The translations under genes and the position numbers were made by a program. The notes below the pieces were generated by a model. The model saw nothing but the letters and a program-made list of their open reading frames with translations. It had not been told where the DNA came from and did not search any database. 35,534 bases of DNA, from positions 1 to 35,534 of the IMG/VR virus record IMGVR_UViG_3300025536_000008; one strand, given 5' to 3'. Positions 1 to 35,534 of this stretch are shown in pieces (positions within the stretch are counted from its first letter, which is position 1; each line of letters starts with the position of its first letter). Origin of the DNA: a virus.

Positions 1-127
1 CTCTTTAACGCCTTCATTAGCGAGCCAACTAGAACGGCTATGGCTGCACCCCAGCCCAAAGTGGAGGTCGAAAGCACCGCAAACAGCCCAGCAAATCGAC
101 CCAATCCAAGGGCACTCAAAGCAGTTC
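1..127. repeat. Terminal overlap, copy 1. Identical to 35408..35534. Indicates a circularly closed or permuted assembly with a 35,407-bp unit.
   Basis: Read directly: ctctttaacgccttcattagcgagcc...ggcactcaaagcagttc occurs at both window ends. The length of 127 equals a common maximum assembler k-mer. Confidence 0.95.
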
Positions 128-1857: not shown

Positions 1858-1933
1858 AGTTATCTCCATTGTCCTGATTGAACATTTGATCTAGAATATG
1901 TAGTCGCTTAGAAAAGAATTTTTGGAGATCAAA

Positions 1934-2677
1934 ATGCCCAAGATCAAATTTATTGAATATCGAGGCGAATCTAGAACAATCAGAGATTGGGCAAAATTAA
2001 AGGGCATCAAGCCTGCCACAATTGCCTATAGATTAAGAAATGGCTGGCCGATAGAAGATGCCTTAAATCTGGACTTGCACTCAGGAAAAAAGATGAAGCA
2101 TGGAAACTGGAAATTTCATCGAAAAGAATATAAGACTTGGCATGGAATGTTGGAAAGATGCACCGATCCAGAGCGATACCATTGCCAAAAAGGCATCAAA
2201 GTCCTATACAAGGATTTCGATGAATTCTTTCAGGACGTTGGTTCCTCACCCAGCCCTAGACATCAAATAGACAGAATTGATAATGATGGTCACTACGAAA
2301 AGGGGAATTGCCGCTGGGCAACGGCAAAACAAAATAATGATAATAGAAGCAACACTGTCATCGTAACCTATGGAGGAATTACGAAACTTTTAGTCGAATG
2401 GGCAAAAGAGCTTAATCTTAATTACATGACTACATTAAATCGTTTTAACAAGGGTTGGCCTCTAGAAAAAGTATTTGCGCCTAGAATGACGATTAAAGAC
2501 CCACTTGTCACATTTCATGGAGAAACAAAGACCATTGCACAATGGGCCAAGGAAAGAGGAATTCATTATGTAACTCTAAGAACTCGATTGTTGCGATATG
2601 GCTGGTCAGTCGAAGACGCCATGAATCAAAAACTAATTCAAGGTCAAAAACATCACAAACACGGCAACTCTTCCTGA
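1934..2677 (+). CDS. Free-standing HNH-family homing endonuclease with three HTH (NUMOD1/IENR-like) repeats.
   Basis: Nuclease motif HQIDRIDNDGHYEKGNCRWATAKQNNDNR. Three repeats of the W(A)KxxGIxxxTxxxRLxxGW type (TIRDWAKLKGIKPATIAYRLRNGWPIEDAL, LVEWAKELNLNYMTTLNRFNKGWPLEKVF, IAQWAKERGIHYVTLRTRLLRYGWSVEDAM). It lies on the opposite strand to the flanking tail genes. GGAGA precedes ATG 1934. Confidence 0.8.
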   Translation: MPKIKFIEYRGESRTIRDWAKLKGIKPATIAYRLRNGWPIEDALNLDLHSGKKMKHGNWKFHRKEYKTWHGMLERCTDPERYHCQKGIKVLYKDFDEFFQDVGSSPSPRHQIDRIDNDGHYEKGNCRWATAKQNNDNRSNTVIVTYGGITKLLVEWAKELNLNYMTTLNRFNKGWPLEKVFAPRMTIKDPLVTFHGETKTIAQWAKERGIHYVTLRTRLLRYGWSVEDAMNQKLIQGQKHHKHGNSS

Positions 2678-3734: not shown

Positions 3735-4100
3735 TTAAACGCTCAAATCTTCCCATTGGCTGTCTTCCCTAACTTCAATCTTGAAAAGTCTAGACAAACC
3801 ACACAAATTTTTCTTATCCAAAACTCGATAAAGTTTGATTGTTCCCAGGACTTCCCCCGTGTCTATCTCTATCAAACTATTGATTTCCACCTTATTCCAG
3901 GCAGTTTGGTCATCAGTGTAGAGTCTTCCTCGCTTAACTTCTCGCTGAGCCATCAAACTAGGCAGAACGTCTTGTGAGGGATATTCTTGATAGAAACAGT
4001 CAATATCCTGATCCAACACCACTTTATCTCTGGTGAAACCTGCGGATACATCCTGTCCATAAGCTATATCATGCGAAGTAAATGTGTGGGGAAAAAACAC
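3735..4100 (-). CDS. Head-closure / head-tail adaptor candidate.
   Basis: 121 aa. Its start abuts the stop of the connector gene at 4100. Assigned by size and position only. Confidence 0.5.
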   Translation of the reverse strand: MFFPHTFTSHDIAYGQDVSAGFTRDKVVLDQDIDCFYQEYPSQDVLPSLMAQREVKRGRLYTDDQTAWNKVEINSLIEIDTGEVLGTIKLYRVLDKKNLCGLSRLFKIEVREDSQWEDLSV

Positions 4101-4906
4101 TAGATGTACCGATCCTTGTAATTCGAGAGGATTGACAATAAATCAGGAGTCAATTTGCTTCTGAATTGATTGCTAAATTGCAGATCATAACTGTATTCAT
4201 CGAGCTTTTCTGAGACTCTGGTAGGTTGTCCAGCAAAGCCGCCAATATCGTTAAAAAAGGTCGTAATTAGTTCGGCCACGACGAACTTCAAATCATCTGG
4301 CAATGGATCAAAACCACCATTCCAAATGACCCTGACGGTGTGATTGCAACCGCACTTTCTATTCGGTTCTAAAATGCCTCGTTTTGGATCAAGTTGGTAT
4401 GATCCGAACCCATCCCAAACTTGCAGATTGTTAGGGGTTGAGCCTGCGCTAGAAATCAAATCAACAGCCAATCTTGAAGCATATTTAGCTGCGACAGAGG
4501 CGGCCCAGCCAGATTCATTATTGATGGCGTCCACCAGATCACTTAGACTAAGATTGGCATAATCTAAATCAATCGTGGTGACTGCCCGTGTAGTGCCATC
4601 GACTAGGTTGAGATTATTGTTGCTGATGCCATAAGAAGAACTTGTCGGGCCGGTAATTTTGATTGCTGATTGATGTTCATCAAAAACTCTGATGACATAA
4701 TCGACTGGATAAGCAGTCAAATAAAGCTCTAGGGTTCGGTCATAATAGATTTCATCATAATCACCTTTTACAAGGCGTCGTTTGCAATATCGCTCCATGC
4801 CTGCGAGGAGGGAGGTTGCAATTGCATCGAATCGAGTTTCGTCGCCTGATGTCAAATCTAGATGGGCGACCAAGGGATCGTTAAAATCAAGAATTTGGTT
4901 GGACAT
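4100..4906 (-). CDS. gp6-like head-tail connector (DNA-packaging/head-completion) protein with a C-terminal extension.
   Basis: AAGGAAG lies upstream of ATG 4906. The N-terminus LVAHLDLTSGDETRFDAIATSLLAGMERYCKRRLVKGDYDEIYY...LTAYPVDYVIRV matches the usual pattern of this connector family. Confidence 0.6.
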   Translation of the reverse strand: MSNQILDFNDPLVAHLDLTSGDETRFDAIATSLLAGMERYCKRRLVKGDYDEIYYDRTLELYLTAYPVDYVIRVFDEHQSAIKITGPTSSSYGISNNNLNLVDGTTRAVTTIDLDYANLSLSDLVDAINNESGWAASVAAKYASRLAVDLISSAGSTPNNLQVWDGFGSYQLDPKRGILEPNRKCGCNHTVRVIWNGGFDPLPDDLKFVVAELITTFFNDIGGFAGQPTRVSEKLDEYSYDLQFSNQFRSKLTPDLLSILSNYKDRYI

Positions 4907-5087
4907 TGGCTTCCTTTTTGTTGCATTCTTCGACCACAACCTCACCGGCATTTCTATACGCCATCTTCAATCTTTGAAAGGCATCTATTGTCAAAGGAAA
5001 TTCAAGTTCTTGGACCACTTCCTTGTTTTCACGGGATTTAACCATCTTATTTTCAGGGATTAACATGTTGTATTTAGAGTAATACAA
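4887..5087 (-). CDS. Small hypothetical protein (start uncertain; internal ATGs at 5066 and 5045).
   Basis: 66-aa ORF directly below the terminator at 5090..5116. No motif. Confidence 0.35.
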   Translation of the reverse strand: MYYSKYNMLIPENKMVKSRENKEVVQELEFPLTIDAFQRLKMAYRNAGEVVVEECNKKEANVQPNS

Positions 5088-5089
5088 CG

Positions 5090-5116
5090 AAAAAAGCCCA
5101 GGTATTACCTGGGCTT
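5090..5116 (-). terminator. Intrinsic terminator for minus-strand transcripts.
   Basis: Minus strand reads aagcccaggtaatacctgggctttttt: a 9-bp GC-rich stem (agcccaggt/acctgggct), a 3-nt loop and a run of six T. Confidence 0.75.
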
Positions 5117-5781
5117 CTTTACAAGAAATCTCAAAACCATGCCTGTACTAGACTTGCTAGGAAATACGCTGCCTTCACTTGCCCGGACCCTGCCGCCGCA
5201 CTACAAGTTAATACCGCAACATACCATTTACACAACTTCGCAATTCCTCACCGCAACGACAGGCGACCTCGCCAAAACCTCACGTCTCACGTCATCACCA
5301 TACCGTCACGTTACTTAACTAGACCCGTCTGAAAGATACCAATACACGAGAGTGCATGACCTCGCCATTACGGCTCATCACACGTCTCTGCGCCACTTTA
5401 CCAACGCATAAAGCGACTATGCCCACACCGTATGATACATAACCAAGACACTATTAGACGACACTACACCGAGACTTCACCAGCCAAACCTTGCCAGTAC
5501 ATGCTATACGATACCTCCACTTCATTTGGAGTAACTTTGCCATGACGCAAAGATTCACAACAATGCTAGGACTTGACTTCTCGGAACTACACCATCACTT
5601 TTCGTAATTTCACTTTTCGTAACCTAAACCTTACCTGTACGTGACATTTCAGTATATGGCTATACCACCACACTTCATTTCGGTACGACACCGCTACATT
5701 AGAAGGCTAGAAAATACCCCAGCCGAACGCAAGTTTACATGACTATGCCATGACTTCACGATGCCAAATGTCACGTCGCCA
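5117..5781 (-). other. ORF-free, repeat-containing region. Candidate long noncoding RNA or long 3' UTR on the minus strand; alternatively an iteron-type origin.
   Basis: No ORF of 60 aa or more in any frame between 5088 and 5781. Hand count over 5161..5760 gives about 192 C versus about 90 G on the plus strand. Dispersed repeats are present (CACGTC, ATACC, ACTTCA and a tandem tcacttttcgtaa). It is bounded by a same-strand gene upstream and a strong minus-strand terminator downstream. Confidence 0.45.
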
Positions 5782-6408
5782 TTACTGGTCGGAGACATCT
5801 TCCCACGAAAATCTGCCCTTCCCCGCCGATCTCCACTGCCCTAGACCAGACCAACGCCCGTGATCCAGCATTGCCACAATGCACTTATCTGGCAAAGTGC
5901 CATAAGGTACGTGTACTTCAAATTCTAAGATTGTTCCCGCTGGAATCACATAAGATCGAGCTATACTCGTGCGTGGCCCCTTTGGGGTATCAGCCCTGAG
6001 AGGTCTTTCACAGATTTCGAGCTTGGCATCGGCAGGTGCCACATAGATTTTGTTGGGAGAAATAAAAACACCGTGGCTCACCTTGGACTGCAACTGCTTG
6101 ATCGCAGTCTTTCCCTTTCCGAACTCCTTCATTACACGTCCCGCCTCTTTGAGCAAACCTTTGACCATGTAATGGGGTATATAATAGCCCTTTTCATCCT
6201 TGAGGAAGCCAGTCAAACCTCGTTCAAGCTCGTCAATATCCTCCACGCCATCCAAGGTAGATTCAAGTTCGGCGTTAATTTCATCTTCTGTCTTGCCATC
6301 ACGCTTCATGCCCTTTGTCATTTTCCCAGCGACATAATCTGTCCAAATGGACTTCTGGGTCGGCATGGTGCCGAGCATGTCGTCTAATAGTGTGAGTTTA
6401 ACTTTCAT
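5782..6408 (-). CDS. Hypothetical 208-aa protein with a RAMP-like C-terminal glycine-rich motif (weak inference).
   Basis: GGAG lies upstream of ATG 6408. The C-terminus is ...ERPLRADTPKGPRTSIARSYVIPAGTILEFEVHV...GRWSGLGQWRSAGKGRFSWEDVSDQ. I recognise no confident family. Confidence 0.7.
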   Translation of the reverse strand: MKVKLTLLDDMLGTMPTQKSIWTDYVAGKMTKGMKRDGKTEDEINAELESTLDGVEDIDELERGLTGFLKDEKGYYIPHYMVKGLLKEAGRVMKEFGKGKTAIKQLQSKVSHGVFISPNKIYVAPADAKLEICERPLRADTPKGPRTSIARSYVIPAGTILEFEVHVPYGTLPDKCIVAMLDHGRWSGLGQWRSAGKGRFSWEDVSDQ

Positions 6409-6448
6409 TTTCTTTCTCCTCTAGGTTTGGTTCGAGTTTCAAGGGTGG

Positions 6449-6602
6449 AGTCCACTTAGACTCGTCCATGCAGACAGGAACATCATCAATCTTTTCTTCT
6501 AGTTTTTTGAAATATCGTTCAATTTAGTCCACTTAGACTCGTCCATGCAGACAGGAACATCATCAATCTTTTCTTCTAGTTTTTTGAAATATCGTTCAAT
6601 TT
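6449..6602. repeat. Perfect 77-bp tandem duplication (6449..6525 = 6526..6602).
   Basis: Read directly: agtccacttagactcgtccatgcagacaggaacatcatcaatcttttcttctagttttttgaaatatcgttcaattt occurs twice with no gap. Confidence 0.95.
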
Positions 6603-6717
6603 GGAACTTGACAAATGATTTTGTGGCAAACAAACTTATGAGATGAGTACGAGCCTCGGCAATAGCCAGATTAAAAGTATTCAATTCATCGAGCAATTCT
6701 CTTAGTTCTCTATTCAT
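6499..6717 (-). CDS. Small coiled-coil protein. Its C-terminus is altered by the 77-bp duplication.
   Basis: ATG 6717 overlaps the stop of the upstream small ORF (ATGAATAG). Sequence MNRELRELLDELNTFNLAIAEARTHL... The frame shifts on entering repeat copy 1 (77 is not divisible by 3) and stops at 6499. Confidence 0.5.
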   Translation of the reverse strand: MNRELRELLDELNTFNLAIAEARTHLISLFATKSFVKFQIERYFKKLEEKIDDVPVCMDESKWTKLNDISKN

Positions 6718-6886
6718 CTCTGTGTATTCTTTTGTGAATGTTTGTCCCCTTGGCAAAAACATTCACTTCGCCAAGTTCGTGATCTAGATCACAGTCAATC
6801 TCTTCTTCCAACTCTTGTAATTCTCGATTGATTTGTTCGAGTTGTCTTTCAAAAAATTCTCTTTGTTTGACTTCAATTTCATTCAT
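6710..6886 (-). CDS. Small coiled-coil protein (58 aa, below the ORF-track cutoff).
   Basis: Manual translation gives MNEIEVKQREFFERQLEQINRELQELEEEIDCDLDHELGEVNVFAKGTNIHKRIHRDE. AAAGGAA precedes ATG 6886. It shares the NRELxEL motif with the next ORF. Confidence 0.45.
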   Translation of the reverse strand: MNEIEVKQREFFERQLEQINRELQELEEEIDCDLDHELGEVNVFAKGTNIHKRIHRDE

Positions 6887-6937
6887 TTCAATTCCTTTCG
6901 ATTGCTCTAAGTTGGCAAGAATTGCCCCAACTCCTAC

Positions 6938-6966
6938 AATCTAGTATATCCTATACGTTATTGCAA
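6938..6966 (-). promoter_or_regulatory. Candidate sigma70-like promoter for the 6886-to-5090 minus-strand cassette.
   Basis: Minus strand reads TTGCAA, 17 nt, TAGATT, about 50 nt upstream of ATG 6886. The host is unknown, so this is weak. Confidence 0.3.
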
Positions 6967-7554
6967 GCCAAAAAACCGAAATTTTTAGGGTAGACCTGGA
7001 GGATAGAAATAGGTATAAACATGACTGGACTCAAATCCATAGCTGCCTCAATTTGCAGTATTTCCTGTTCCTGGGTCTATCTGGACGGTTTAAGAGGATC
7101 AAAAGGTTCGTTAGGCAATTAGACTTCGAGAGCTAATCAGAGCGGCTTGTACCCGCTTTTACCTTGCTAGAAATAGTATTGCTTTTGATTTAAGTTGGAA
7201 CTGTTGGTAGTGTTTCCCTTCAAGGAAGCAGATGAACAGGTGACAATGATAATTAGTCGTCAAAATCTACCGATATAGACGAAACGGCATTGTGATGAAC
7301 AATGTAACGAGGAAATTATCGAGATTATAAGGGCGTTTTGTAAGAGCCTAACTATGAATCAACCTCTTACTCTTGGGTCTTATAATCATTCATGTCTAGA
7401 CACATGAATCTGCTAATCTCTTTCATTTAGCTTTAATTCAATTTATTGAGTTTAGTAAGTGTTTTTGGTTGGGAGGAAAGCGCAGCTTTTGGAATAGAGA
7501 CTCCAATAAAACCTATTTATTGCTATTTTCATAGCCATCATCGGAGAAACTAAA

Positions 7555-7989
7555 ATGACTGATTTTGGACTTGGTGACAAAATTGTTCTCGAAGAAGAAC
7601 TGACATCTACACTGAGACATCATGGTCTTATTGATCCCAAGACAACTTATTCCCGCCTGAACAAACAACATTGGGGCGTCAGACCTCAAATGATGCCCAT
7701 CTTCAATCCTGAACTAGACCTCGTGATTGATACGCCACTCGAAAAACTGAAATTCAAGGACTTCATGGTGTTGAAAGTGGGCGGATTTGACCAGTTCAGT
7801 AACTTGAAATATGATGAATTGGTAAAAAGGGCTTCGGCAGCCAATCTACATTCCATTTTAGAAGCTCTCACAAGCCGCAAGGCGGCTGCTACAGCCCTCA
7901 GATGGACTCTGAGAGGCTTAGACGCCCCCAAAGCCATACGGAAGGTCCAGGTCGATTTGGAAGTGTCGAAGAATTGTTATCCCAAATGA
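7555..7989 (+). CDS. Hypothetical protein (144 aa).
   Basis: GGAGAAA lies 8 nt upstream of the ATG. It is a plus-strand gene inside the accessory island. No motif recognised. Confidence 0.6.
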   Translation: MTDFGLGDKIVLEEELTSTLRHHGLIDPKTTYSRLNKQHWGVRPQMMPIFNPELDLVIDTPLEKLKFKDFMVLKVGGFDQFSNLKYDELVKRASAANLHSILEALTSRKAAATALRWTLRGLDAPKAIRKVQVDLEVSKNCYPK

Positions 7990-8094
7990 AGATGAAAAAG
8001 ACTGAAAGAAAACTATTGAGAGCGGCGTCCAAGGTTGTCGGCATCAACGTACCAGGAAGCTCACCCTGAATTGTGGGTGGACGCCTAACAAATC

Positions 8095-9099
8095 TTACCC
8101 TTGTCCGGGGAGAGCCATTAGCCCTAAAAAGCTAATGGCTCTTTTTTTTTTGAATCCCTCCTCAATCCTGGCAACCGCAGCCTGCTTTCTCTCCCAAATT
8201 TCCAACTCCTTGCCACTCAACTTAGGTGCCACCCAAACTGCCCTCTTAACGTATGGAAGTCGATCCTCGGCCATAAACGCCTCCAAGGCACTCAGAAGGC
8301 CAATAGACAGCGTTTCATAAGTCAATGACCTATATTGGTTGCCAAACACTCTCGTGGCTTCTATGCCCACTTCTGGAGCGTCTGTGGGCATCCAATGTGT
8401 CATGTGGTCAAACGGCTCAATACAACGAACTGGATGATGTTTTAGCCATATTCCCCAGGTAGGCGTTGAGAATGCCCCAGCGACATGCAATGGCCCTGAG
8501 TCAACAAAAATACACAGACTTGCCGATTCAATCATTGCGCCTAAATGGTCTACAGTAGACGCTGGCGTTTTATCGAGATTGACACAGATGTATTTGTCAG
8601 AAGCATTGATGAATTCCTCAATCCTCGTGAGGATTTTATCATCTAGATTCTTGGCCCACGTTTTGGAAACGCCTTTCCCGTGTAGCAGAATTACCTTCTT
8701 CCCAAGTTCATCTCGTTGCTTAAAAACTGCGTTTTTAATCTCTGGATCGAGAATGCAGTTATAGCTGTAAAGTTCTGCCTTTGGCTCAAGCCCAAGATCA
8801 TCAACTATACAATGCGTAGTTTTTGTTTGAGGTAGGTTTTGATATTCCCGATCAGCCATTGGGAAATTGATATAGAGCGACTCTTCCCAATTCCAAACAT
8901 CAAAAGGTGAACATAATTGTTTATATGTTGCTAAACCACGAAGAATTGCTTCTCGGCCAGGAAGAGTTTCAACTGCAAATTGCATTTCTGGAATATAATG
9001 CTTGAGATGTTTAAGCACGATAGAAAATTGCATAAAATCACCCAAACCATGTTTCATGCGTATTAACCACCAACCAGGGAATCTAAGCGTTTTTGGCAT
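8095..9099 (-). CDS. GT9-family (heptosyltransferase-like, GT-B fold) glycosyltransferase.
   Basis: N-terminal WLIRMKHGLGDFMQFSIVLKHLKHYIPEMQF and C-terminal FVDSGPLHVAGAFSTPTWGIW match the GT9 signature (lGD...; DSGpmHlAaAlGtP). Confidence 0.7.
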   Translation of the reverse strand: MPKTLRFPGWWLIRMKHGLGDFMQFSIVLKHLKHYIPEMQFAVETLPGREAILRGLATYKQLCSPFDVWNWEESLYINFPMADREYQNLPQTKTTHCIVDDLGLEPKAELYSYNCILDPEIKNAVFKQRDELGKKVILLHGKGVSKTWAKNLDDKILTRIEEFINASDKYICVNLDKTPASTVDHLGAMIESASLCIFVDSGPLHVAGAFSTPTWGIWLKHHPVRCIEPFDHMTHWMPTDAPEVGIEATRVFGNQYRSLTYETLSIGLLSALEAFMAEDRLPYVKRAVWVAPKLSGKELEIWERKQAAVARIEEGFKKKRAISFLGLMALPGQG

Positions 9100-14052: not shown

Positions 14053-14237
14053 TACCAAATCCTTAAATGTCCCACAACCTCGAAGAGAGCGTCATTATTG
14101 ACATTACACCAACTATCAGCTTTTTGTTTCTTATCTATTGGTTTCGGCTGGGCTTTTGGCTTTTTCCCACGTTTCTTGGTCTTGGGTTCAGGAGGCTGTC
14201 CCTTCTTCCACAATCTATCAAATATCTCCGTCATCAT
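14052..14237 (-). CDS. Small basic protein (61 aa).
   Basis: Lys/Pro-rich ORF bridging TerL and the portal. It overlaps both neighbours. Confidence 0.4.
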   Translation of the reverse strand: MMTEIFDRLWKKGQPPEPKTKKRGKKPKAQPKPIDKKQKADSWCNVNNDALFEVVGHLRIW

Positions 14238-16365
14238 CTCTCCTCATTGCTTGTTTACGTTCTAGATGTAGAACAAGGTAGCGCAATCCGTCGCAGTTCT
14301 TCACCAGAATATCATTGGCATAATACTCATCACCATCTCCGACAGTGATGTTATATACATCATGCCGACTTTTTAGGTGTTCGATTTTGATGATATGCGG
14401 CATCTGGGCCTCGCCTACGGTGTCTTGCTTTGCAATTTTGATGGCAGAATCTTCCATGCTTGCTATGAGCTTCGTATGTTCTTCCACAGCAATCACATTG
14501 TTTGGAGGTAATTGTTTTTCCGAAGCGACATTTTTTGGCATGTTTTCGGTGCCATTCCAGTCCTGCTGCCGAGCCGTGCCATTTAGAAGCAAGCGGACGG
14601 ATTGTTTCGAGGAGTTTCCGATTGGCACGCTTCTGCTTTTCGGTTCGGGGATGTCTTCTGAAATGCTCCGTGGGACTAACGCATTCGAGATTTTGGATTG
14701 AATTGTTTGCTGGGTCGCCGTCCTTGTGATGAATATGCCATCCTTTGGGGATGATCCCTCGCTTTTCTTCCCAGACAACCCGATGTAAATATCTTGGTTT
14801 TCCTTGCCAGCCTTCGGATTTGAAGTATTTTCTGTCAGCCTCGTTTGAAGACTCTGGGTAACGTCTGTATTTGACGCCTTTGTATATTTTTGTTTCACGC
14901 ATACTCTATCATAGTATCGCAAAGCATCAATTCGACAGAAATCTTTACCTTCTGCCCAAACAGGATGGTCGGGGGTGCCCGTCAGGGTGTGACCATTTGA
15001 CAAAGTAATTTGCATTACACAAGCATTTTTTTGAGTAAGAGCTATTGCAGTGATGGGCTTGTAGCCACTTCTTGTTAAGGCGAGGTCATGCAATTTCAAA
15101 TCAACAAGGGTTTTTGGTCCTTCAATTGTGTCAATCAGAGTTTCTCCAATAAGACAGGCGTGGTCTTTTTGCCCATTCATCGGCTTATTTCCCACTGCAT
15201 TCCCATCCTCGCCAGTCAAATATCTATACGTCAAAAATTCGCTGTGTAAGTTCGGACAACATTCAGTCACAATCTTCAATTTGCCACGTCTTATTCGAGC
15301 TTGTACCAAACTAATTCCCAAAGAAATGCTCTCCGGCCCCTTGAGTGCTGGCTTGGCATTCACGCCTAATTTTCTTAAAGCAAGAATTGCATTCTTTTGA
15401 TGATCGCAAGTCCACAACCTGATTTTATCGCCAGTAGCTTCCTTAAATTTCTTCTCAAAGCCAGTAATGCTGTCAAACAACTCTAGAATGTCACCAGGAG
15501 CATAATGCTCGTGAATTATCCACAGGCAGTCATCGTAATCAATTAGCCCTAAGAGCCAACAATGAGGGTCGGTGCCGCCAAAATCTACCGCCGCTACATA
15601 TTGTGCTGCCTCTGGCAACCCTTCGTCAGGCATATCCACAAAACAACTCTTCCCATTGGCATCTACTGGATCATAAACCAACCCTGGCATCTTCGAGAAT
15701 TTGCCCTCGAAATTCATCTCAAATTCCCAAGTTGGCATTTCCTTTCTAGCCTTCTCGATGAGTGTCATATCGCTGGCTGGATTTAGCCAGGAAGGAAAGA
15801 CTCGATAGAAATAATTTTTATCACCGTTATCAGCAGCAGCCATTATTTTTGTTTTAAGCCAATCATACTTCATATAAGGTGTTGAACTCAAAAAGATTCT
15901 GGCTCCTTTGCGATTAACTAATCTTCCCTCGACTGTTTTGAGCGTCGAATAGGGACAGTTCCCACATTCGTCTATCCACCCTGAGTCGGCTTTTATTCCT
16001 TCATAATCCGCTTCTGCGGATCGGAAGTAGATAACACCACCACCAGGGAGTTTATACTCGTGCAAGCCGCTCGTGCCTTGATAAGCAGTCCCTTGTAAAG
16101 TCTTCTCTAAAGCAGTTTTTGTCGCCTTTGTAACAACATCGAATGTACTGGCAACCACCAAATGTGTGCCTTTGCCCTTGAGCTTCTCTATTTCTCTGAG
16201 TTGCCATAGGGCGGCACACGCTGATTTGCCGCCATTTTTGCCTCCTATAGCGGCAATAATTCTGGCCTCTGATTGCAAACAATCAAATTGCCCCTCGTGA
16301 ACTGGAAAGTATTTGTTTGTGATGCCATTCTCATCAATGAAAAGATCGCCCCAATTCAATGTCAT
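14218..16365 (-). CDS. terL: Terminase large subunit precursor containing an intein (extein 1..403 and 691..715).
   Basis: Walker A AIGGKNGGKS, Walker B WIDECG and nuclease AVDFGGTDPHCW. The conserved C-terminal KDHA-CDGLRY motif is split by a 287-aa insert. ATG 16365 overlaps the TerS stop (ATGA). Confidence 0.9.
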   Translation of the reverse strand: MTLNWGDLFIDENGITNKYFPVHEGQFDCLQSEARIIAAIGGKNGGKSACAALWQLREIEKLKGKGTHLVVASTFDVVTKATKTALEKTLQGTAYQGTSGLHEYKLPGGGVIYFRSAEADYEGIKADSGWIDECGNCPYSTLKTVEGRLVNRKGARIFLSSTPYMKYDWLKTKIMAAADNGDKNYFYRVFPSWLNPASDMTLIEKARKEMPTWEFEMNFEGKFSKMPGLVYDPVDANGKSCFVDMPDEGLPEAAQYVAAVDFGGTDPHCWLLGLIDYDDCLWIIHEHYAPGDILELFDSITGFEKKFKEATGDKIRLWTCDHQKNAILALRKLGVNAKPALKGPESISLGISLVQARIRRGKLKIVTECCPNLHSEFLTYRYLTGEDGNAVGNKPMNGQKDHACLIGETLIDTIEGPKTLVDLKLHDLALTRSGYKPITAIALTQKNACVMQITLSNGHTLTGTPDHPVWAEGKDFCRIDALRYYDRVCVKQKYTKASNTDVTQSLQTRLTENTSNPKAGKENQDIYIGLSGKKSEGSSPKDGIFITRTATQQTIQSKISNALVPRSISEDIPEPKSRSVPIGNSSKQSVRLLLNGTARQQDWNGTENMPKNVASEKQLPPNNVIAVEEHTKLIASMEDSAIKIAKQDTVGEAQMPHIIKIEHLKSRHDVYNITVGDGDEYYANDILVKNCDGLRYLVLHLERKQAMRRDDDGDI
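14296..15156 (-). mobile_element. Intein within TerL (287 codons, Cys1 to Asn287, +1 Cys).
   Basis: Block A CLIGETLIDT, block B GHTLTGTPDHPVW, blocks F/G DVYNITVGDGDEYYANDILVKN followed by C. Coordinates were verified codon by codon (TGT at 15156..15154, AAC at 14298..14296). Confidence 0.85.
14360..14902 (-). CDS. HNH homing endonuclease encoded inside the intein in a different reading frame (+2/-1 relative to TerL).
   Basis: ATG-initiated 180-aa ORF with LHRVVWEEKRGIIPKGWHIHHKDGDPANNSIQNLECVSPTEH and a C-terminal Cys/His finger CDCCGRTYEAHSKHGRFCHQNC. The frame offset follows from the coordinates (16365 mod 3 = 0, 14902 mod 3 = 1). Confidence 0.8.
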   Translation of the reverse strand: MRETKIYKGVKYRRYPESSNEADRKYFKSEGWQGKPRYLHRVVWEEKRGIIPKGWHIHHKDGDPANNSIQNLECVSPTEHFRRHPRTEKQKRANRKLLETIRPLASKWHGSAAGLEWHRKHAKKCRFGKTITSKQCDCCGRTYEAHSKHGRFCHQNCKARHRRRGPDAAYHQNRTPKKSA

Positions 16366-20477: not shown

Positions 20478-21383
20478 ATGCTCAACAAATATGAATTAGA
20501 AAAAGTTCTCAAAAGTGGCGCATCTAATGTTGAAGCCGCCACAATTTTTGATTGTGGTGTGCGCACAATAGTGCGTGCCAGGAAAACTTTTGGTCTTGAT
20601 CGTGGTTTCATCAGTCACGGCAATCATATCCTTAGTGACGTGCAAAATGAAATCCTCACGGCATGTCTATTGGGAGATGGTTACATCAACTTTTCATCTA
20701 GAGGTCACTCTAGATTTGGTTTTGGGCAAGCGAAGCGAAGGCGAAAATATGTCGAATTTATAAATGAACTTCTCAAGCCATTATCAGTGACGCCTTTTTT
20801 TGAAACTCGATTGGACCCAAGAGTAAAATCCGGGAAGAGTGAATCTTGGCGATTTTATACTCACGCAGATCACCAATTTACTGATCTTCGTGAGAAGTGG
20901 TATAACCCAGAAAAAAAGGTGCCGAGTTGGTTAAAATTGTCACCCCTTATCTTTTCTCATTGGTTTCTTCAAGATGGTTGCAATTCACCAGAAAAAAGAG
21001 CTTTGACTCTTGCAACAGATGCGTTTAGCAGAGCCGATGTGGAATTTCTACAAGAGCGACTCAGAACTGATCTAGAGTTGGTTTCTACAATTCAAGGAAG
21101 CAAACAATTTCACTTAGCCATCGGTGCTTATGAATGTGAAAAGGCTTTATCCATGATAAGGCAATATAATAACTTTCGTTGCTTTCGATACAAGAATCGC
21201 TTCATCAAGAAGAAAAACCCAAATCTAGGTGCATCTAAACTTAACAAATCTATTGCAGAACAAATTAGAATCAAATGGAAGAATGGCGTTAAACCACCTT
21301 TGTTGGCCGAGGAATACGACGTGGGGGTTGTGTCCATCTACAATATCCTAAGCTATCGAACCTATGCTGTTACTTCAACATAA
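20478..21383 (+). CDS. Free-standing LAGLIDADG homing endonuclease flanked by HTH domains.
   Basis: Motif 1 ILTACLLGDGYINF and motif 2 IFSHWFLQDGCNS. N- and C-terminal HTH-like segments. Opposite strand to its neighbours. Confidence 0.75.
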   Translation: MLNKYELEKVLKSGASNVEAATIFDCGVRTIVRARKTFGLDRGFISHGNHILSDVQNEILTACLLGDGYINFSSRGHSRFGFGQAKRRRKYVEFINELLKPLSVTPFFETRLDPRVKSGKSESWRFYTHADHQFTDLREKWYNPEKKVPSWLKLSPLIFSHWFLQDGCNSPEKRALTLATDAFSRADVEFLQERLRTDLELVSTIQGSKQFHLAIGAYECEKALSMIRQYNNFRCFRYKNRFIKKKNPNLGASKLNKSIAEQIRIKWKNGVKPPLLAEEYDVGVVSIYNILSYRTYAVTST

Positions 21384-27198: not shown

Positions 27199-29217
27199 AT
27201 GAATGAATTACAAATTGGCAAGGCTGGAGAATATCTTGTCTGTGCTGACTTAATTATGCAAGGGTATGTTGCATTCCCATCGGAACAAGGATTGCCATTT
27301 GATGTAGTCGTCGATGTGAATGGGAAGTTAATTAAGGTACAGGTGAAGACAACGCTGGAATATAAGCCCTTTAATGGCTGCATAGGTTATGTTTACCATG
27401 TCAAACAATGCGGTAAACATGGAAGGCAAACTTATAGAACCCAAGATGTTGATATTTTTGCGCTTGTAGCTCTTGATAAACGGCTCATTGGTTATGCTCT
27501 ACCTTCACAGATGAAGACAACCATGTTTTTTCGCATACCTGATTTTGTTTATCCGGCAGATAAGGCTCGGACTCAGCGTGTTGAGAGAGATACTAGAATA
27601 AATGAATTAGTGAAATCGGGGATGCCTAAAAGAGATATAGACAGATTGCTTGGTCTTAGATTAGGAACAACATCAAACATTTTGGCGAAGCCCATAAACA
27701 ATCACAAAAGAAACATGTTTGGAAAACGACAACTGGTAGTAAGAAAAGCTCCCGCCACCGATCCTCAATATGAACAGCGGCCCACGAGGACAATTCGTCT
27801 ACGGCCTCGCTGCTTAGCCCAAGCCCCTGAACAGATGCTCAAGATAAATCATGGAGCAGGCGGCATAGGTGACGCCCTGTTGGGCCTCACGATTACTCGT
27901 GGCCTGCAAGCCCAAGGTTATCAAATTGCTTATGCAGTTTCTCCTCTGGCCCAACCCTTTGTAGCCCTTTTTGAGGGTTGCGATTTCTTGGCGGAACACA
28001 AGCATGACGCCAATCAAATTGAATATCCTGATGAGAACTTACAAATCAATGTCGGTTACACTATCGAATGCAAGGAAAAATGTGGCAATGGGTTGATTCC
28101 AAGATGGAAGAGATACGCAGATAATCTGGAATACTCTGGAGAACCTATAATCCCAGAGTTAAGGGATCGGAGGGGGATTGAAGAGTTAGGGCTGTCTTTC
28201 AAAGACAAGGTAATTCTTGCCCCATTTTCCACCTGGGAAGCACGGGCTTGGCGTATCGAGAGTTGGCTGACGTTGAATCATTTGCTTCAATCAAAAGGAT
28301 ATGAAACTGTCGTCATCAGCCAGAAGCATAAAAAGCTAGAGTTATTCAAAAATACAGAGATTGTGGAAGAGGCCACTGCCGCCAAGGTGGCGGGAGTTCT
28401 GCTTAACGCCGCAGCCTGTGTGGCCTGTGACTCGGGGATGAGCCACCTCGCAGGATTGCTTGGTACATCCTGCATCACCTTATGCGGACAAACCACTGGA
28501 AAAGATATTTTTGGTTTGTATCCCAGCGTGAAAAGCATCCAAGGTTCTTTGTTGTGTAATGGATGCTGGTGGAACGAGCCGCCGTATGACCATCATGCCT
28601 GTGGTCATTGCTGTGCGAATTTGCAATCAATTACACCAAGTCAAGTTTTGCACGAGATAGATCAGATTTGTTTGCCAAAATTTGCCAAGGACGAGGCGGT
28701 AATTTGTCGAGGAAAATTGGCGGTGGTTCGGGATTGTTTAATGGAAGTGAAACATCTGGAGGGGGATGTTGGGGAGTTTGGTGTCTATCGTGGGGGCGTG
28801 GCGGCGTTCATCCAGCATTACTTGCCAAACGATCAGCTTCATCTCTATGACACGTTCTGCGGTATGCCTTTTGGCGATAAACATCCTGGGGGTCGTCACC
28901 GAGCGGGAGATTTCGCAGGATGTAGCATGGAACAAGTGAAAAGTTTAGTCCCCAAGGCAAAATTATATCCAGGTGTCTTTCCCAATTATGCGTTGCCGGA
29001 TGTGAAATATAAGTTCACCCATCAGGATTTTGATCTTCAACAAAGTGCAGAAGCGGCTTTTGTCTATAGCAAACCGAGACAAGTTCCTGGTTCATTGATG
29101 TTGATCGACGATTTTGGATGGGAAAATTGTCCTGGCATAAAGGTAGCTGTGGCGAAATGTTTCCCAGGCTCCTCGATTGAGCGACCCTCGGAATATCAGG
29201 CACTTATCAGGTTTTAA
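27199..29217 (+). CDS. Multi-domain fusion: PD-(D/E)XK nuclease-like domain + HTH, GT9 glycosyltransferase, and TylF-like SAM O-methyltransferase.
   Basis: aa 1-100: GKAGEYLVCADLIMQGYVAF...PFDVVVDVNGKLIKVQVKTT...DVDIFALV. HTH: INELVKSGMPKRDIDRLLGLRLGTTSNIL. GT9: an internal MLKINHGAGGIGDALLG (ATG 27835) and ACDSGMSHLAGLLGTSCITLCG, then the Cys cluster CNGCWWNEPPYDHHACGHCC. Methyltransferase: GDVGEFGVYRGG...LYDTFCGMP...DFDLQQS...GSLMLIDDFG. Confidence 0.75.
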   Translation: MNELQIGKAGEYLVCADLIMQGYVAFPSEQGLPFDVVVDVNGKLIKVQVKTTLEYKPFNGCIGYVYHVKQCGKHGRQTYRTQDVDIFALVALDKRLIGYALPSQMKTTMFFRIPDFVYPADKARTQRVERDTRINELVKSGMPKRDIDRLLGLRLGTTSNILAKPINNHKRNMFGKRQLVVRKAPATDPQYEQRPTRTIRLRPRCLAQAPEQMLKINHGAGGIGDALLGLTITRGLQAQGYQIAYAVSPLAQPFVALFEGCDFLAEHKHDANQIEYPDENLQINVGYTIECKEKCGNGLIPRWKRYADNLEYSGEPIIPELRDRRGIEELGLSFKDKVILAPFSTWEARAWRIESWLTLNHLLQSKGYETVVISQKHKKLELFKNTEIVEEATAAKVAGVLLNAAACVACDSGMSHLAGLLGTSCITLCGQTTGKDIFGLYPSVKSIQGSLLCNGCWWNEPPYDHHACGHCCANLQSITPSQVLHEIDQICLPKFAKDEAVICRGKLAVVRDCLMEVKHLEGDVGEFGVYRGGVAAFIQHYLPNDQLHLYDTFCGMPFGDKHPGGRHRAGDFAGCSMEQVKSLVPKAKLYPGVFPNYALPDVKYKFTHQDFDLQQSAEAAFVYSKPRQVPGSLMLIDDFGWENCPGIKVAVAKCFPGSSIERPSEYQALIRF

Positions 29218-34107: not shown

Positions 34108-35534
34108 TTATGCCAACCCCACCTTTAATCCCTTGACGGACGTGCTTATATTAGACAAGTGTTGATTCATCTGTTTTTGTTCGTTAAGTTGATTCTTCTG
34201 CAACTCAGTTTGTTGTTTGGCGTCTGATACATCCATCGTATTCAAATCACGCCATGCTTGCCCTAATTCTTGAAATTGAGGTTTTGCCTGACCTAAACGA
34301 ACCAAAGGATGAGTTTGAGGCATATTCTCTTTGTTCCAAATCTTCGATCTCTCTGCGACATCCTTGGCAATGTTGTCCGAGAAGCCGGTCAATTTGCCCA
34401 ATGCCGAACCAATCGCAGACATCTTCAACAACTTGTCCACGATCCGCCCCAGCGTCAGGTCGATATTGATTAGATCGAATGCGAAATTTTCAATGGCCTG
34501 ACCTATGTCGCCAAAAATCGAGCCGATAATCATAAAGAACATTTCCCATTGGGTCCAATCAATGCTGTCAATTATGTCTGCCACTCTCTGAAATTGGGCA
34601 ACCAACCCATTCTGGACCTTGCTCACCAGTTCAGTCATCCATTTGGCACCTTGTCCAAACCAAGCCACTATTTTTCCCAGCAGTTTTCCAAAAGGAGCAA
34701 AAATGGTCAGCAACTCCTTCCCAAAAATTACCATTGCGGTCAAAGGATTCATTACTAGAAAAACGGCCCCAGCCAACATGCTGATAACTTTTAGAACTGC
34801 TTTGAAGATGTCTTTAATCCCCGTGCCTTCACCAACAATGTCGGCCAGACCCTTATAAATGTCTGCCAACCATTTAACCCAATCATTAGCAATTTCTAGA
34901 ATTGCCTGGGCAAATGGCGCAAGTATTTGACCGAGATATTTCAGTGCTTCTCCAACATTAGCCATCAATTGGTCCCAAGCCCCGCCCAAACTATTCACTT
35001 GCTTCTTTTCATCTTCCAGACCAGCATTTCCAAGCTCGGCCAACTTCTCCATACGTTGATTTTGCCCGTGATACCCACGCAAAGCATGAGTGTCGGTCTT
35101 AATGCCTTTGGATTCCTCGGTCAGAATCTTCATGGCGTTTTCTGTGCTGCCGCCAATCTTGTTTTTTAGTCCAACAGCTAATTGTGTGAAGTTTTCAAGT
35201 TCCTTGGTTGGGACTTTCATGTCCAAGCCAATTGAGGCCACCTTGAGAATTTCCTCAGTGGTCAGTCGGCTCGTCTTGGACAAGTTACGAGCAAAATCTT
35301 GAAAACTTTTTGTGAACGATTCGAGTTGAGATTGCTTTCCTTCAAAATCTAGCGAAGCCTCTGCGGCAGCCTTGAAGGCAACGAGTTCTTTTCTCGCTGC
35401 CACAAAGCTCTTTAACGCCTTCATTAGCGAGCCAACTAGAACGGCTATGGCTGCACCCCAGCCCAAAGTGGAGGTCGAAAGCACCGCAAACAGCCCAGCA
35501 AATCGACCCAATCCAAGGGCACTCAAAGCAGTTC
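34108..35534 (-). CDS. Tape measure protein, remaining part (continuation of 1..665 across the circular junction).
   Basis: Long helical, Ala/Gly/Leu-rich protein with hydrophobic segments (LGWGAAIAVLVGSLM, ISMLAGAVFLVMNPLTAMVIFG). Synteny fits: major tail, chaperone G/G-T, this gene, distal tail genes. Confidence 0.85.
   Translation of the reverse strand, partial: TALSALGLGRFAGLFAVLSTSTLGWGAAIAVLVGSLMKALKSFVAARKELVAFKAAAEASLDFEGKQSQLESFTKSFQDFARNLSKTSRLTTEEILKVASIGLDMKVPTKELENFTQLAVGLKNKIGGSTENAMKILTEESKGIKTDTHALRGYHGQNQRMEKLAELGNAGLEDEKKQVNSLGGAWDQLMANVGEALKYLGQILAPFAQAILEIANDWVKWLADIYKGLADIVGEGTGIKDIFKAVLKVISMLAGAVFLVMNPLTAMVIFGKELLTIFAPFGKLLGKIVAWFGQGAKWMTELVSKVQNGLVAQFQRVADIIDSIDWTQWEMFFMIIGSIFGDIGQAIENFAFDLINIDLTLGRIVDKLLKMSAIGSALGKLTGFSDNIAKDVAERSKIWNKENMPQTHPLVRLGQAKPQFQELGQAWRDLNTMDVSDAKQQTELQKNQLNEQKQMNQHLSNISTSVKGLKVGLA
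35408..35534. repeat. Terminal overlap, copy 2 (identical to 1..127).
   Basis: Exact 127-bp match to the window start. Confidence 0.95.

What the first reader, a model, noticed from the sequence alone, without database searches (positions are those of the whole stretch)
5117..5781. ORF-free 0.66-kb segment with persistent C-over-G skew and diverged internal repeats
**ORFs and composition.** No ORF of 60 aa or more exists in any of the six frames, in an otherwise densely coding genome. Hand count over 5161..5760 gives about 192 C versus about 90 G on the plus strand, so the minus-strand transcript would be G+U-rich.

**Repeats.**
- A diverged repeat pair: 5486..5530 aligns with 5626..5683. Both start aaacctt(g/a)cc(a/t)gtac and end ccac(a)cttcattt(g/c)g.
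- A tandem tcacttttcgtaa at 5595..5607 and 5610..5622.
- tcgccattac at about 5362 and 5775.
- gacctcgcca at 5265 and 5358.
- Six CACGT(C)/GTCACGT cores, at 5281, 5288, 5307, 5383, 5639 (reverse complement) and 5772.
- Seven ATACC.

**Interpretation.** Candidates are a structured or repeat-modular ncRNA, a long regulatory 3' UTR, or an iteron-type replication origin or protein-binding array.

**Caveat.** Neighbouring minus-strand genes also show C>G on the plus strand, so skew alone is not diagnostic.
Basis: seen in the sequence. Interest (0 to 1): 0.65.

Follow-up and report, generated by a model that had tools for sequence, protein, structure and literature searches.

The report
Phage VIPR guide-RNA array beside RAMP gene
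The gene-free stretch is very probably the guide-RNA array of a phage "VIPR" system, a CRISPR-like RNA-guided DNA-binding module first described in two 2026 preprints. It is real and interesting, but it belongs to a kind that is already known.

Summary
Positions 5117-5781 have no ORF of 60 aa or more, with 192 C against 90 G over 5161-5760, and the listed short repeats are present.

On the minus strand, G recurs every 5.17 nt (31/6) along the whole segment. This periodicity is far above shuffles and occurs nowhere else in the 35.5-kb window.

The segment parses into about 129 head-to-tail units. Most are YNNNG pentamers. A YNNNGG hexamer appears roughly every sixth unit.

- **Position.** It starts at the stop codon of a 208-aa minus-strand gene (5782-6408) and ends at a strong intrinsic terminator (5120-5090).
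- **The neighbouring protein.** It is a stand-alone Cas7-like RAMP protein with a glycine-rich loop and a thumb hairpin.
- **Conservation.** In 150 of 166 distantly related loci, the homologous RAMP gene has the same kind of array beside it. The array is always on the gene's strand.
- **Match to the literature.** This fits VIPR (bioRxiv 10.64898/2026.04.26.720920 and .720927). There, Vipr protomers coat a pentamer-repeat vrRNA, and its variable dinucleotides read double-stranded DNA to silence rival phages.

This is a new member of a known kind, of the degenerate YNNNG type. No target was found, and expression was not tested.

The parts
5090..5120 (-). Intrinsic terminator that closes the vipr-array transcription unit. 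The stem is AAAGAAGCCCAGG/CCTGGGCTTTTTT, followed by a T-run on the minus strand.
   Evidence: Terminator scan: 14 pairs, 6 of them G-C, 3-nt loop, T-rich tail. Inverted repeat I1.
5121..5781 (-). vrRNA-like array. It has about 129 head-to-tail units: 108 pentamers of form YNNNG (position 1 is Y in 80%, position 5 is G in 81%) and about 26 hexamers of form YNNNGG, one every 4-7 units. The mean period is 5.17 nt. The lattice phase is already detectable from about 5795, inside the last codons of the upstream gene.
   Evidence: Spectral peak at 5.18 nt, power 6.95 against at most 2.9 in 1000 shuffles. Rows of 31 nt line up. Dynamic-programming segmentation and logo. The same lattice sits beside homologous genes in 150 of 166 loci.
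5782..6408 (-). vipr-like gene. It encodes a 208-aa stand-alone Cas7-family RAMP protein with an RRM core, a thumb beta-hairpin (about residues 131-155, containing RPLRADT..GPR) and a glycine-rich loop (GLGQWRSAGKGRF).
   Evidence: Family alignment. PDB profile hits to type VII Cas7 and to Csm4. AlphaFold2 model, pLDDT 83. Foldseek top hits are type VII Cas7, Csm3 and Cas7-11 (E about 4e-6). Best BFVD hit is a 'Cas system-associated RAMP' protein. hhalign against the SUSP1 Vipr clade gives probability 74%, E 2.9e-5, with the G-loops aligned.
6499..6886 (-). Two small upstream ORFs on the same strand: 58 aa (6710-6886) and 87 aa (6499-6762). In two other assemblies the second is 95 aa and overlaps the vipr start. 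They may be co-transcribed. Function is unknown, and they are not conserved next to vipr homologues.
   Evidence: ORF list. Gene calls in L002 and L003. No conservation and no Pfam match among the small ORFs upstream of homologues.
6943..6971 (-). Candidate sigma-70-type promoter for the unit (TTGGCT, 17-nt spacer, TATACT).
   Evidence: Consensus scan only, 9 of 12 matches. The number of such sites in the region is not above the shuffle expectation. Weak evidence.

Best explanation
The segment is the guide-RNA (vrRNA) array of a phage VIPR (Viral Interference Programmable Repeat) module.

**Shown here**
- A 208-aa Cas7-like RAMP gene, a 660-nt array of 5-nt units on the same strand, and an intrinsic terminator lie one after another.
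- The lattice is statistically real and unique in this genome.
- Distant homologues of the gene almost always carry the same kind of array on their own strand.

**Inferred from the SUSP1 system in the two preprints**
- The unit is transcribed from a promoter upstream of the gene.
- RAMP protomers polymerise along the RNA, one per unit, as a helical filament.
- Each protomer sequesters the conserved G and the following pyrimidine through its G-loop and thumb. W192 and R193 of the window protein align with SUSP1 W178 and R179.
- The variable bases are displayed to read double-stranded DNA, with one target base skipped per unit.
- Binding silences genes of competing phages, prophages or satellites.

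**Why YNNNG rather than YNNGG (tentative)**
In my alignment the two SUSP1 residues that read the first G (H17, D177) are replaced by G13 and Q191. The N-terminal part of that alignment is weak.

**The extra G (my inference)**
The extra G about every sixth unit may track the six-subunit turn reported for the RNA-only filament.
For: - **Anatomy:**
- **Periodicity:** 5.18-nt peak with power 6.95, against at most 2.9 in 1000 shuffles; the strongest such region in the window.
- **Unit logo:** YNNNG pentamers with YNNNGG hexamers.
- **Pooled arrays:** 87 arrays and 6306 units give pentamer HNNNG (G 93%) and hexamer CAANGG, most often 5-6 units apart.
- **Linkage:** 80 of 86 metagenomic and IMG/VR loci and 70 of 80 GTDB genome loci have a same-strand array next to the homologous gene, upstream, downstream or both. 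None has an antisense array.
- **Protein:** RAMP fold, G-loop and thumb.
- **Link to a bona fide Vipr:** I located the SUSP1 locus, and it shows perfect T-NN-GG pentamers beside ALH47069.1. hhalign of the two clades gives probability 74%, E 2.9e-5, 178 columns, with GLGQWR aligned to GVGDWR.
- **Literature:** pentamer vrRNAs; the variants NNNGG, YNNNG and NNNNG; staggered arrays; predominantly viral and proviral location. One protomer per repeat, a six-subunit binary helix, and the roles of D177, W178, R179 and H17.
- **Context:** an ordinary tailed-phage genome with no cas genes.
Against: - The preprint's primary search criterion, at least four tandem YNNGG, is not met (0 hits). Only the relaxed YNNNG/NNNNG consensus fits.
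- Homology to the SUSP1 Vipr clade is below the usual 90% hhalign confidence.
- No conserved 3' tail or pseudoknot, no recognisable vap accessory gene, and no discrete vrRNAs of about 100 nt were found.
- No target was found. Two 24-base NNx patterns had no exact match in IMG/VR, and seed searches in a local database of about 0.7 Mb (both strands scanned) gave no excess.
- Transcription, processing and protein binding are untested for this locus.
- Lattice quality in the window (G at 81-86% of anchor positions) is lower than in most relatives (91-99% in those listed).
Confidence: 0.82

Rival explanations
1. The RNA is bound by the RAMP protein but is not a guide. The long, uninterrupted array would act as a scaffold, storage form or decoy for the protein filament, for example a sponge or an autoregulatory 3' UTR, with no sequence-specific DNA targeting.
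For: - The array is continuous (about 129 units), with no tails or evident processing signals.
- No targets were found.
- The non-G positions are compositionally biased rather than uniformly random.
Against: - The non-G positions differ completely between relatives while the lattice is kept. This is the pattern of programmable positions reported for vrRNAs.
- The preprint reports arrays without tails, including staggered arrays and single vrRNAs.
- My target searches were far too small to count as negative evidence.
Confidence: 0.08
2. A DNA-level element: an iteron-type origin or a phased protein-binding array. The G's recur every half helical turn (31 bp equals three turns of 10.33 bp), positioning a DNA-binding protein.
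For: - 5.17 nt is numerically half of a 10.33-bp helical repeat.
Against: - The lattice is strictly strand-specific relative to the adjacent gene (150 same-strand, 0 antisense). A double-stranded DNA site has no reason to keep this.
- The partner protein has an RNA-binding RAMP fold.
- There is no 10.3-nt spectral peak, only 5.18 and its harmonic 2.59.
- The replication genes (Prim-Pol, D5-like helicase) lie about 19 kb away.
- vrRNAs of a related system were sequenced and co-purified with the protein.
Confidence: 0.02
3. A type III toxin-antitoxin-like pair. The repeat RNA would be processed by, and would neutralise, an endoribonuclease encoded next to it.
For: Gross resemblance: a protein of about 200 aa next to a tandem-repeat RNA, bounded by a terminator.
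Against: - The protein is a Cas7-like RAMP, not a ToxN/AbiQ-fold nuclease.
- The units are 5-6 nt and degenerate, not 34-45-nt near-identical repeats.
- The array lies downstream here and on either side in relatives. By my recollection, not tested here, ToxI-type arrays precede the toxin gene.
- No PADLOC search was run.
Confidence: 0.02
4. A decayed pseudogene or a plain long 3' UTR, whose skew and repeats are incidental.
For: ORF-free, and located 3' of a gene.
Against: - The period is 5.17 nt, not 3.
- The signal is far above shuffles.
- The same lattice recurs beside homologues at 30-45% protein identity, in genomes assigned to unrelated bacterial phyla.
Confidence: 0.01

Closest known systems
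VIPR (Viral Interference Programmable Repeat) systems. Type II exemplar: Escherichia phage SUSP1 (bioRxiv 10.64898/2026.04.26.720920 and 10.64898/2026.04.26.720927).
   Same: - Phage-encoded stand-alone RAMP protein of about 200 aa, with RRM core, thumb and G-loop.
- Long intergenic regions beside the gene, made of tandem 5-nt units with a conserved G followed by a pyrimidine and variable bases between.
- Same strand as the gene, and no CRISPR array or cas genes.
- W and R of the G-loop are conserved.
- Six units per extra G here, against a six-subunit helical turn in the binary filament.
   Different: - Units are YNNNG, not YNNGG. The first G is lost, and the residues that read it in SUSP1 appear to be substituted.
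- One uninterrupted array of about 129 units, punctuated by hexamers, rather than separate vrRNAs of about 100 nt with 9-16 repeats and a pseudoknotted 3' tail.
- No recognisable vap gene.
- Protein homology to the SUSP1 clade is only remote (hhalign 74%).
- Which of the seven published types this clade belongs to could not be determined, because figures and data tables are not available as text.
Cas7 backbone subunits of class 1 CRISPR-Cas effectors (type VII Cas7, type III Csm3/Cmr4, Cas7-11 domains).
   Same: Closest solved folds (Foldseek E about 4e-6, TM about 0.5). They share the G-rich loop motif and a thumb hairpin that interrupts the guide periodically.
   Different: - Period is 5 (with an occasional 6) rather than a strict 6 nt.
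- No CRISPR repeats or spacers, and no Cas5, Cas6, Cas10 or Cas11 partners.
- The lattice is written into the RNA sequence itself.
Type III toxin-antitoxin systems (ToxIN, CptIN, TenpIN).
   Same: A protein gene next to a tandem-repeat non-coding RNA within one terminator-bounded unit. Often carried by phages or plasmids.
   Different: The protein fold is unrelated. Their repeats are 34-45 nt and near-identical, and the RNA is an antitoxin rather than a guide.
TRAP-trp leader and other RNA-binding protein oligomers that read short motifs at spacings of about 5 nt.
   Same: A single conserved purine motif recurs every 5-6 nt in unstructured RNA and is read by one protomer per motif.
   Different: TRAP is a closed 11-mer ring that binds 11 triplets for attenuation. 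It has no RAMP fold and no arrays of hundreds of nucleotides. This comparison rests on my own knowledge and was not tested.

Membership tests
VIPR system | Stand-alone RAMP protein with RRM core, thumb and glycine-rich loop, outside any CRISPR-Cas locus | tested here: met
   - G-loop GLGQWRSAGKGRF, with invariant G188, W192, R193, G198 and F200.
- AlphaFold2 model with a beta-hairpin at 131-155.
- Foldseek hits to Cas7, Csm3 and Cas7-11.
- No cas genes among the annotated ORFs of the window.
VIPR system | Sequence homology to an experimentally characterised Vipr (SUSP1 ALH47069.1 clade) | tested here: inconclusive
   hhalign profile-profile gives probability 73.7%, E 2.9e-5, 178 aligned columns from the N-terminal strand to the G-loop. 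Against the single sequence it gives 61.6%. Supportive, but below conventional confidence.
VIPR system | Tandem YNNGG repeats, at least four units, in the intergenic DNA flanking the gene (the preprint's primary search rule) | tested here: not met
   The regex (Y..GG){4,} finds nothing on either strand of the window.
VIPR system | Alternative pentamer consensus accepted by the preprint (NNNGG, YNNNG, NNNNG), on the gene's strand | tested here: met
   - 108 pentamers, with Y at position 1 in 80% and G at position 5 in 81%.
- 5.18-nt period far above shuffles.
- Nine runs of at least five NNNNG inside 5100-5800 on the minus strand, and none on the plus strand.
- The preprint's methods list these variants.
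VIPR system | Conserved lattice with hypervariable intervening bases across relatives | tested here: met
   Arrays beside homologues share no primary sequence but keep the G lattice. This holds in 150 of 166 loci.
VIPR system | Structured, invariant 3' tail capping each vrRNA (type II feature) | tested here: inconclusive
   No repeated tail-like element was found inside the array. Only the terminator hairpin lies at the 3' end. The preprint reports other architectures without tails. I did not search relatives for a conserved 3' element.
VIPR system | Accessory vap gene next to vipr | tested here: inconclusive
   The small ORFs upstream of vipr in seven loci share no similarity and have no Pfam match. 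The preprint notes that some Vipr genes stand alone.
VIPR system | vrRNA is expressed, co-purifies with Vipr and directs sequence-specific double-stranded DNA binding by the 1-nt skip rule | not testable with these tools
   Needs RNA-seq, pull-down and reporter assays. My in-silico target searches found nothing, but they were underpowered.
CRISPR-Cas class 1 effector (Cas7) | CRISPR repeat-spacer array and partner cas genes (Cas5, Cas6, large subunit) | tested here: not met
   No direct-repeat or spacer structure. No cas domains in the window ORFs I scanned. Rfam found nothing.
Type III toxin-antitoxin | ToxN/AbiQ-type endoribonuclease plus near-identical repeats of 34-45 nt | tested here: not met
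   The protein has a RAMP fold. Tandem Repeats Finder reports only a 7-nt, 2.7-copy repeat.

The most novel reading that the evidence does not exclude
This large clade (2368 protein clusters at 50% identity) may use a vrRNA architecture and reading frame not covered by the published type II mechanism.

- The arrays are uninterrupted, 200-1000 nt long, and built from modules of typically five single-G pentamers plus one G-G hexamer. The hexamer is CAANGG in most relatives and YNNNGG here.
- That is one extra nucleotide per roughly six protomers, which is one turn of the binary filament.
- This could mean very long continuous filaments, or mini-guides of about 31 nt cut at the hexamers.
- It could also mean an altered code in which the former first-G position has become informative.
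- A hint for that last point: TAA and TAG are depleted at unit positions 2-4 across 7434 units (z = -9), while TAT, TAC and TGA are not.
Probability: 0.25. Interest if true: 0.6.

Novelty: new member of a known kind. Interest (0 to 1): 0.45.

Why it matters
VIPR was proposed in 2026 as a phage-borne, pre-CRISPR form of RNA-guided DNA recognition with a gapped code.

- **Detection.** Such arrays can be recognised from raw sequence by a 5.17-nt G periodicity alone, even when the canonical YNNGG search rule fails. The same signature marks 150 of the 166 related loci examined (phage contigs and bacterial genome assemblies).
- **A natural variant.** This locus keeps one G instead of two. It appears to carry matching substitutions in the residues that read the first G, and it has a once-per-turn extra nucleotide. 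This could help define how filament geometry and the recognition code co-vary.
- **Annotation.** The practical result is that this 0.66-kb "gap" is an RNA gene array, not an origin, a UTR or junk.

Tried and rejected
- **Rfam.** Gathering and permissive thresholds gave only noise at the terminator. No tRNA or tmRNA.
- **Folding.** Single-sequence folding of either strand gave z-scores of -1.5 and -0.5, so there is no evidence of a compact structure.
- **DNA similarity.** Window 4000-8000 has no match in GenBank phages.
- **Single-protein scans of IMG/VR.** These gave almost nothing. An alignment-based scan was needed.
- **Covariation.** Not possible. The only close relatives (L002, L003) are identical over the array.
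- **vap gene.** The small ORFs upstream of vipr are not conserved.
- **Targeting rules.** I tried 16 rules (which unit positions pair, with 0-3 skipped target bases, with and without an extra base at hexamers) as 14-base seeds against about 0.7 Mb of fetched loci, scanned on both strands. Only the period-5 rules showed an excess. All of that excess came from arrays I had not masked.
- **Codon reading.** Reading positions 2-4 as codons gives a pseudo-protein with one stop in 129 codons. It has no significant tblastn hit in phages (best E 0.04). Residual triplet preferences correlate with codon usage about equally in other registers and in antisense. I do not claim a codon-like code.
- **NNx patterns.** Two 24-base patterns built from units 5421-5340 under the published rule had no exact match in IMG/VR.
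- **Half-helical-turn DNA reading.** I considered and rejected this reading of 5.17 nt because of the strict strand linkage.

Full report
**The observation.**
Positions 5117-5781 contain no ORF of 60 aa or more. The longest is 59 aa on the plus strand; the others are 33-38 aa. GC skew over the segment is -0.35, against +0.02 to -0.16 in neighbouring minus-strand genes. CACGT (5 against 0.7 expected) and ATACC (7 against 1.4 expected) are enriched over shuffles.

On the minus strand, G recurs with a period of 5.18 nt, with a harmonic at 2.59. Spectral power is 6.95, against a maximum of 2.9 over the whole spectrum in 1000 shuffles. No other part of the 35.5-kb window approaches this. Written in 31-nt rows, the G columns line up along the whole segment.

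- A dynamic-programming parse gives about 129 head-to-tail units: 108 pentamers, about 26 hexamers and 3 tetramers.
- The pentamer logo is Y (80%; T 61%), N, N, N, G (81%).
- The hexamers are almost all YNNNGG and occur every 4-7 units.

**Surroundings.**
The array begins at the stop codon of a 208-aa minus-strand gene (5782-6408). It ends at a strong minus-strand intrinsic terminator (5120-5090: 14-pair stem followed by a T-run).

- Two small ORFs and a weak sigma-70-like site (6971-6943) lie upstream on the same strand.
- The rest of the window is a tailed-phage genome: HK97-type capsid, portal, an intein-bearing large terminase, head-tail adaptor, Prim-Pol and D5-like helicase, and HNH and LAGLIDADG endonucleases. 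There are no cas genes.
- The window's two ends share 127 nt with each other, so the genome is probably complete and circularly permuted.
- Rfam, tRNA scans and single-sequence folding gave nothing.

**The protein.**
It has no Pfam or PHROG match but belongs to a large family.

- The first search found 29 relatives at 30-46% identity. A profile search of 1.84 billion cluster representatives found 2368 clusters.
- The alignment shows an invariant C-terminal motif, GLGQWRNSGKGRF in consensus, which is the RAMP glycine-rich loop. It also shows a basic RPLRADT..GPR stretch.
- A profile search of the PDB hits type VII Cas7 (E 0.002) and Csm4 through that loop.
- The AlphaFold2 model (pLDDT 83) has an RRM-like core and a long beta-hairpin at residues 131-155.
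- Its best Foldseek matches are type VII Cas7, Csm3 and the Cas7 domains of Cas7-11 (E about 4e-6, TM about 0.5).
- The best viral match is annotated "Cas system-associated RAMP superfamily protein".

**Conserved linkage.**
I fetched contigs carrying distant homologues. The ORF-free DNA next to the gene showed the same 5.14-5.18-nt G periodicity on the gene's strand, with no primary-sequence similarity and even a different base composition: G+A-rich there, G+T-rich here.

- An alignment-based scan of IMG/VR returned at least 572 relatives. Of 86 loci examined, 80 have such an array directly next to the gene: 48 upstream, 19 downstream and 13 on both sides.
- An independent scan of GTDB genomes gave 70 of 80 loci with an array.
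- No locus in either set had an array on the opposite strand.
- The genome hits are mostly metagenome-assembled genomes of Clostridia. Others are assigned to Thermodesulfobacteriota, Verrucomicrobiota, Planctomycetes, Bacteroidales and Coriobacteriia.
- Pooled over 87 arrays and 6306 units, the pentamer is H-N-N-N-G (G 93%; position 1 is C 50%, A 32%, G 3%).
- The hexamer is a more constrained C-A-A-N-G-G. It is most often 5-6 units from the next hexamer, hence the modal 31-nt module.

**Identification.**
A literature search led to two 2026 bioRxiv preprints from one group that describe exactly this kind of module.

- VIPR systems consist of a phage-encoded "ancestral RAMP" (Vipr) and vrRNAs made of tandem pentamers, with a conserved GGY and a hypervariable NN.
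- In phage SUSP1 the vrRNAs were sequenced, co-purified with Vipr, and shown to direct binding to double-stranded DNA. Each NN pairs with the target and one target base is skipped per unit. Binding represses transcription, and natural targets are competing satellites and prophages.
- Seven types are described. They include variants with NNNGG, YNNNG and NNNNG units, "staggered" arrays, and ribozyme-interspersed arrays.
- The structural preprint shows one protomer per repeat. The RNA-only complex is a right-handed filament with six subunits per turn. G1 is read by H17 and D177, G2 by R138 and W178, and Y3 by R179.

**Testing the link directly.**
- I located the SUSP1 locus in KT454805.2. ALH47069.1 (28474-29061, minus strand) is flanked by intergenic DNA with perfect T-NN-GG pentamer runs followed by conserved tails.
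- Profile-profile comparison of my family with the SUSP1 clade gives probability 74% and E 2.9e-5. It spans 178 columns from the first beta-strand to the G-loop, with GLGQWR aligned to GVGDWR (single sequence 62%).
- So W192 and R193 of the window protein correspond to the residues that hold G2 and Y3.
- D177 is replaced by Q191. Less certainly, H17 is replaced by G13.
- This fits the loss of the first G in this clade's units (YNNGG becomes YNNNG). It is an inference from a moderate-confidence alignment.

**Where it does not fit the type II description.**
- The preprint's primary rule, at least four tandem YNNGG, finds nothing here.
- There are no separate vrRNAs of about 100 nt, no repeated 3' tail and no recognisable vap gene.
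- The array is one uninterrupted run punctuated by hexamers. One extra nucleotide about every six units matches the six-subunit turn of the binary filament. That link is my inference.
- I could not see the preprint's figures (S17, S18). I therefore cannot say which type this clade is, or whether the hexamer punctuation is their "staggered" architecture.

**Targets.**
I could not identify any.
- Sixteen candidate reading rules, tried as 14-base seeds against about 0.7 Mb of fetched loci (both strands scanned), gave no excess. The only exception was trivial array-to-array matches.
- Two 24-base NNx patterns had no exact hit in IMG/VR.
- A pseudo-protein read from unit positions 2-4 had no significant phage match.
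- These searches are underpowered and do not argue against a guide function.
- One unexplained observation remains. Across 7434 non-redundant units, TAA and TAG at positions 2-4 are depleted (254 stop triplets against 382 expected from within-array column shuffles, z = -9), while TAT, TAC and TGA are not. A codon-usage comparison was not discriminating.

**Verdict.**
The segment is, with high probability, the vrRNA array of a VIPR-type module inserted as a self-contained unit in the structural region of an uncultivated phage.
The origin/iteron and plain-UTR candidates are not supported.
- The kind has been known since April 2026, so this is a new member, of the degenerate single-G type.
- Some architectural details (hexamer punctuation, substitutions in the residues that read the first G) may be new.
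- Expression, protein binding and targeting remain to be shown for this locus.

Noticed in passing
window 6449-6525 and 6526-6602: An exact 77-bp tandem duplication. It is absent from two independent assemblies of the same phage (L002, ENA; L003, Logan), which are otherwise 100% identical over the fetched stretches. It frameshifts the small ORF just upstream of the RAMP gene: 95 aa overlapping the vipr start in the other assemblies, 87 aa here. It could be a real variant or an assembly artefact (77 is a common assembler k-mer size).
   Followed up: partly
window 1-127 and 35408-35534: The two ends of the window map to the same 127 nt of contig L002. The window therefore looks like a complete, circularly permuted or terminally redundant genome of about 35.4 kb.
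   Followed up: partly
pooled arrays from 141 loci (units_all; e.g. L006:6582-7019, L084:3588-4487): At unit positions 2-4, TAA (125 against 178 expected) and TAG (54 against 125) are strongly depleted. TAT, TAC and TGA are not. This is unexplained. It could hint that the third variable base is read, or reflect some RNA-level constraint.
   Followed up: partly
L009:6838-6885 (also L010-L012): A G+C-rich inverted repeat (CCCTCTCCCCC TGC GGGGGGAGAGGG) interrupts the pentamer array of one relative. It may be an internal hairpin, a terminator or an inserted element that splits the array in two.
   Followed up: no
L013:2028-3502: One relative without a detectable array has a reverse transcriptase (RVT_1) and an RNase H gene about 3 kb upstream of its RAMP gene.
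   Followed up: no
representative proteins P0150 (458 aa) and P0151 (432 aa): The two best profile hits are about twice the normal length and match the profile in two stretches. They may be tandem-fused double RAMP proteins.
   Followed up: no
window 14218-16365 (minus), 20478-21383 (plus), 1922-2677 (plus): The large terminase appears to carry an intein (Intein_splicing domain, scoring just below Pfam's curated cut-off). The genome also has free-standing LAGLIDADG and HNH endonuclease genes. For its size, this small phage is rich in selfish elements.
   Followed up: no
window 8095-9099 (minus) and 27199-29217 (plus): Two glycosyltransferase family 9 (heptosyltransferase-like) domains. One lies next to the capsid gene. 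The other is fused to a PD-(D/E)XK nuclease domain and a TylF-type methyltransferase domain. This is unusual cargo for a 35-kb phage.
   Followed up: no
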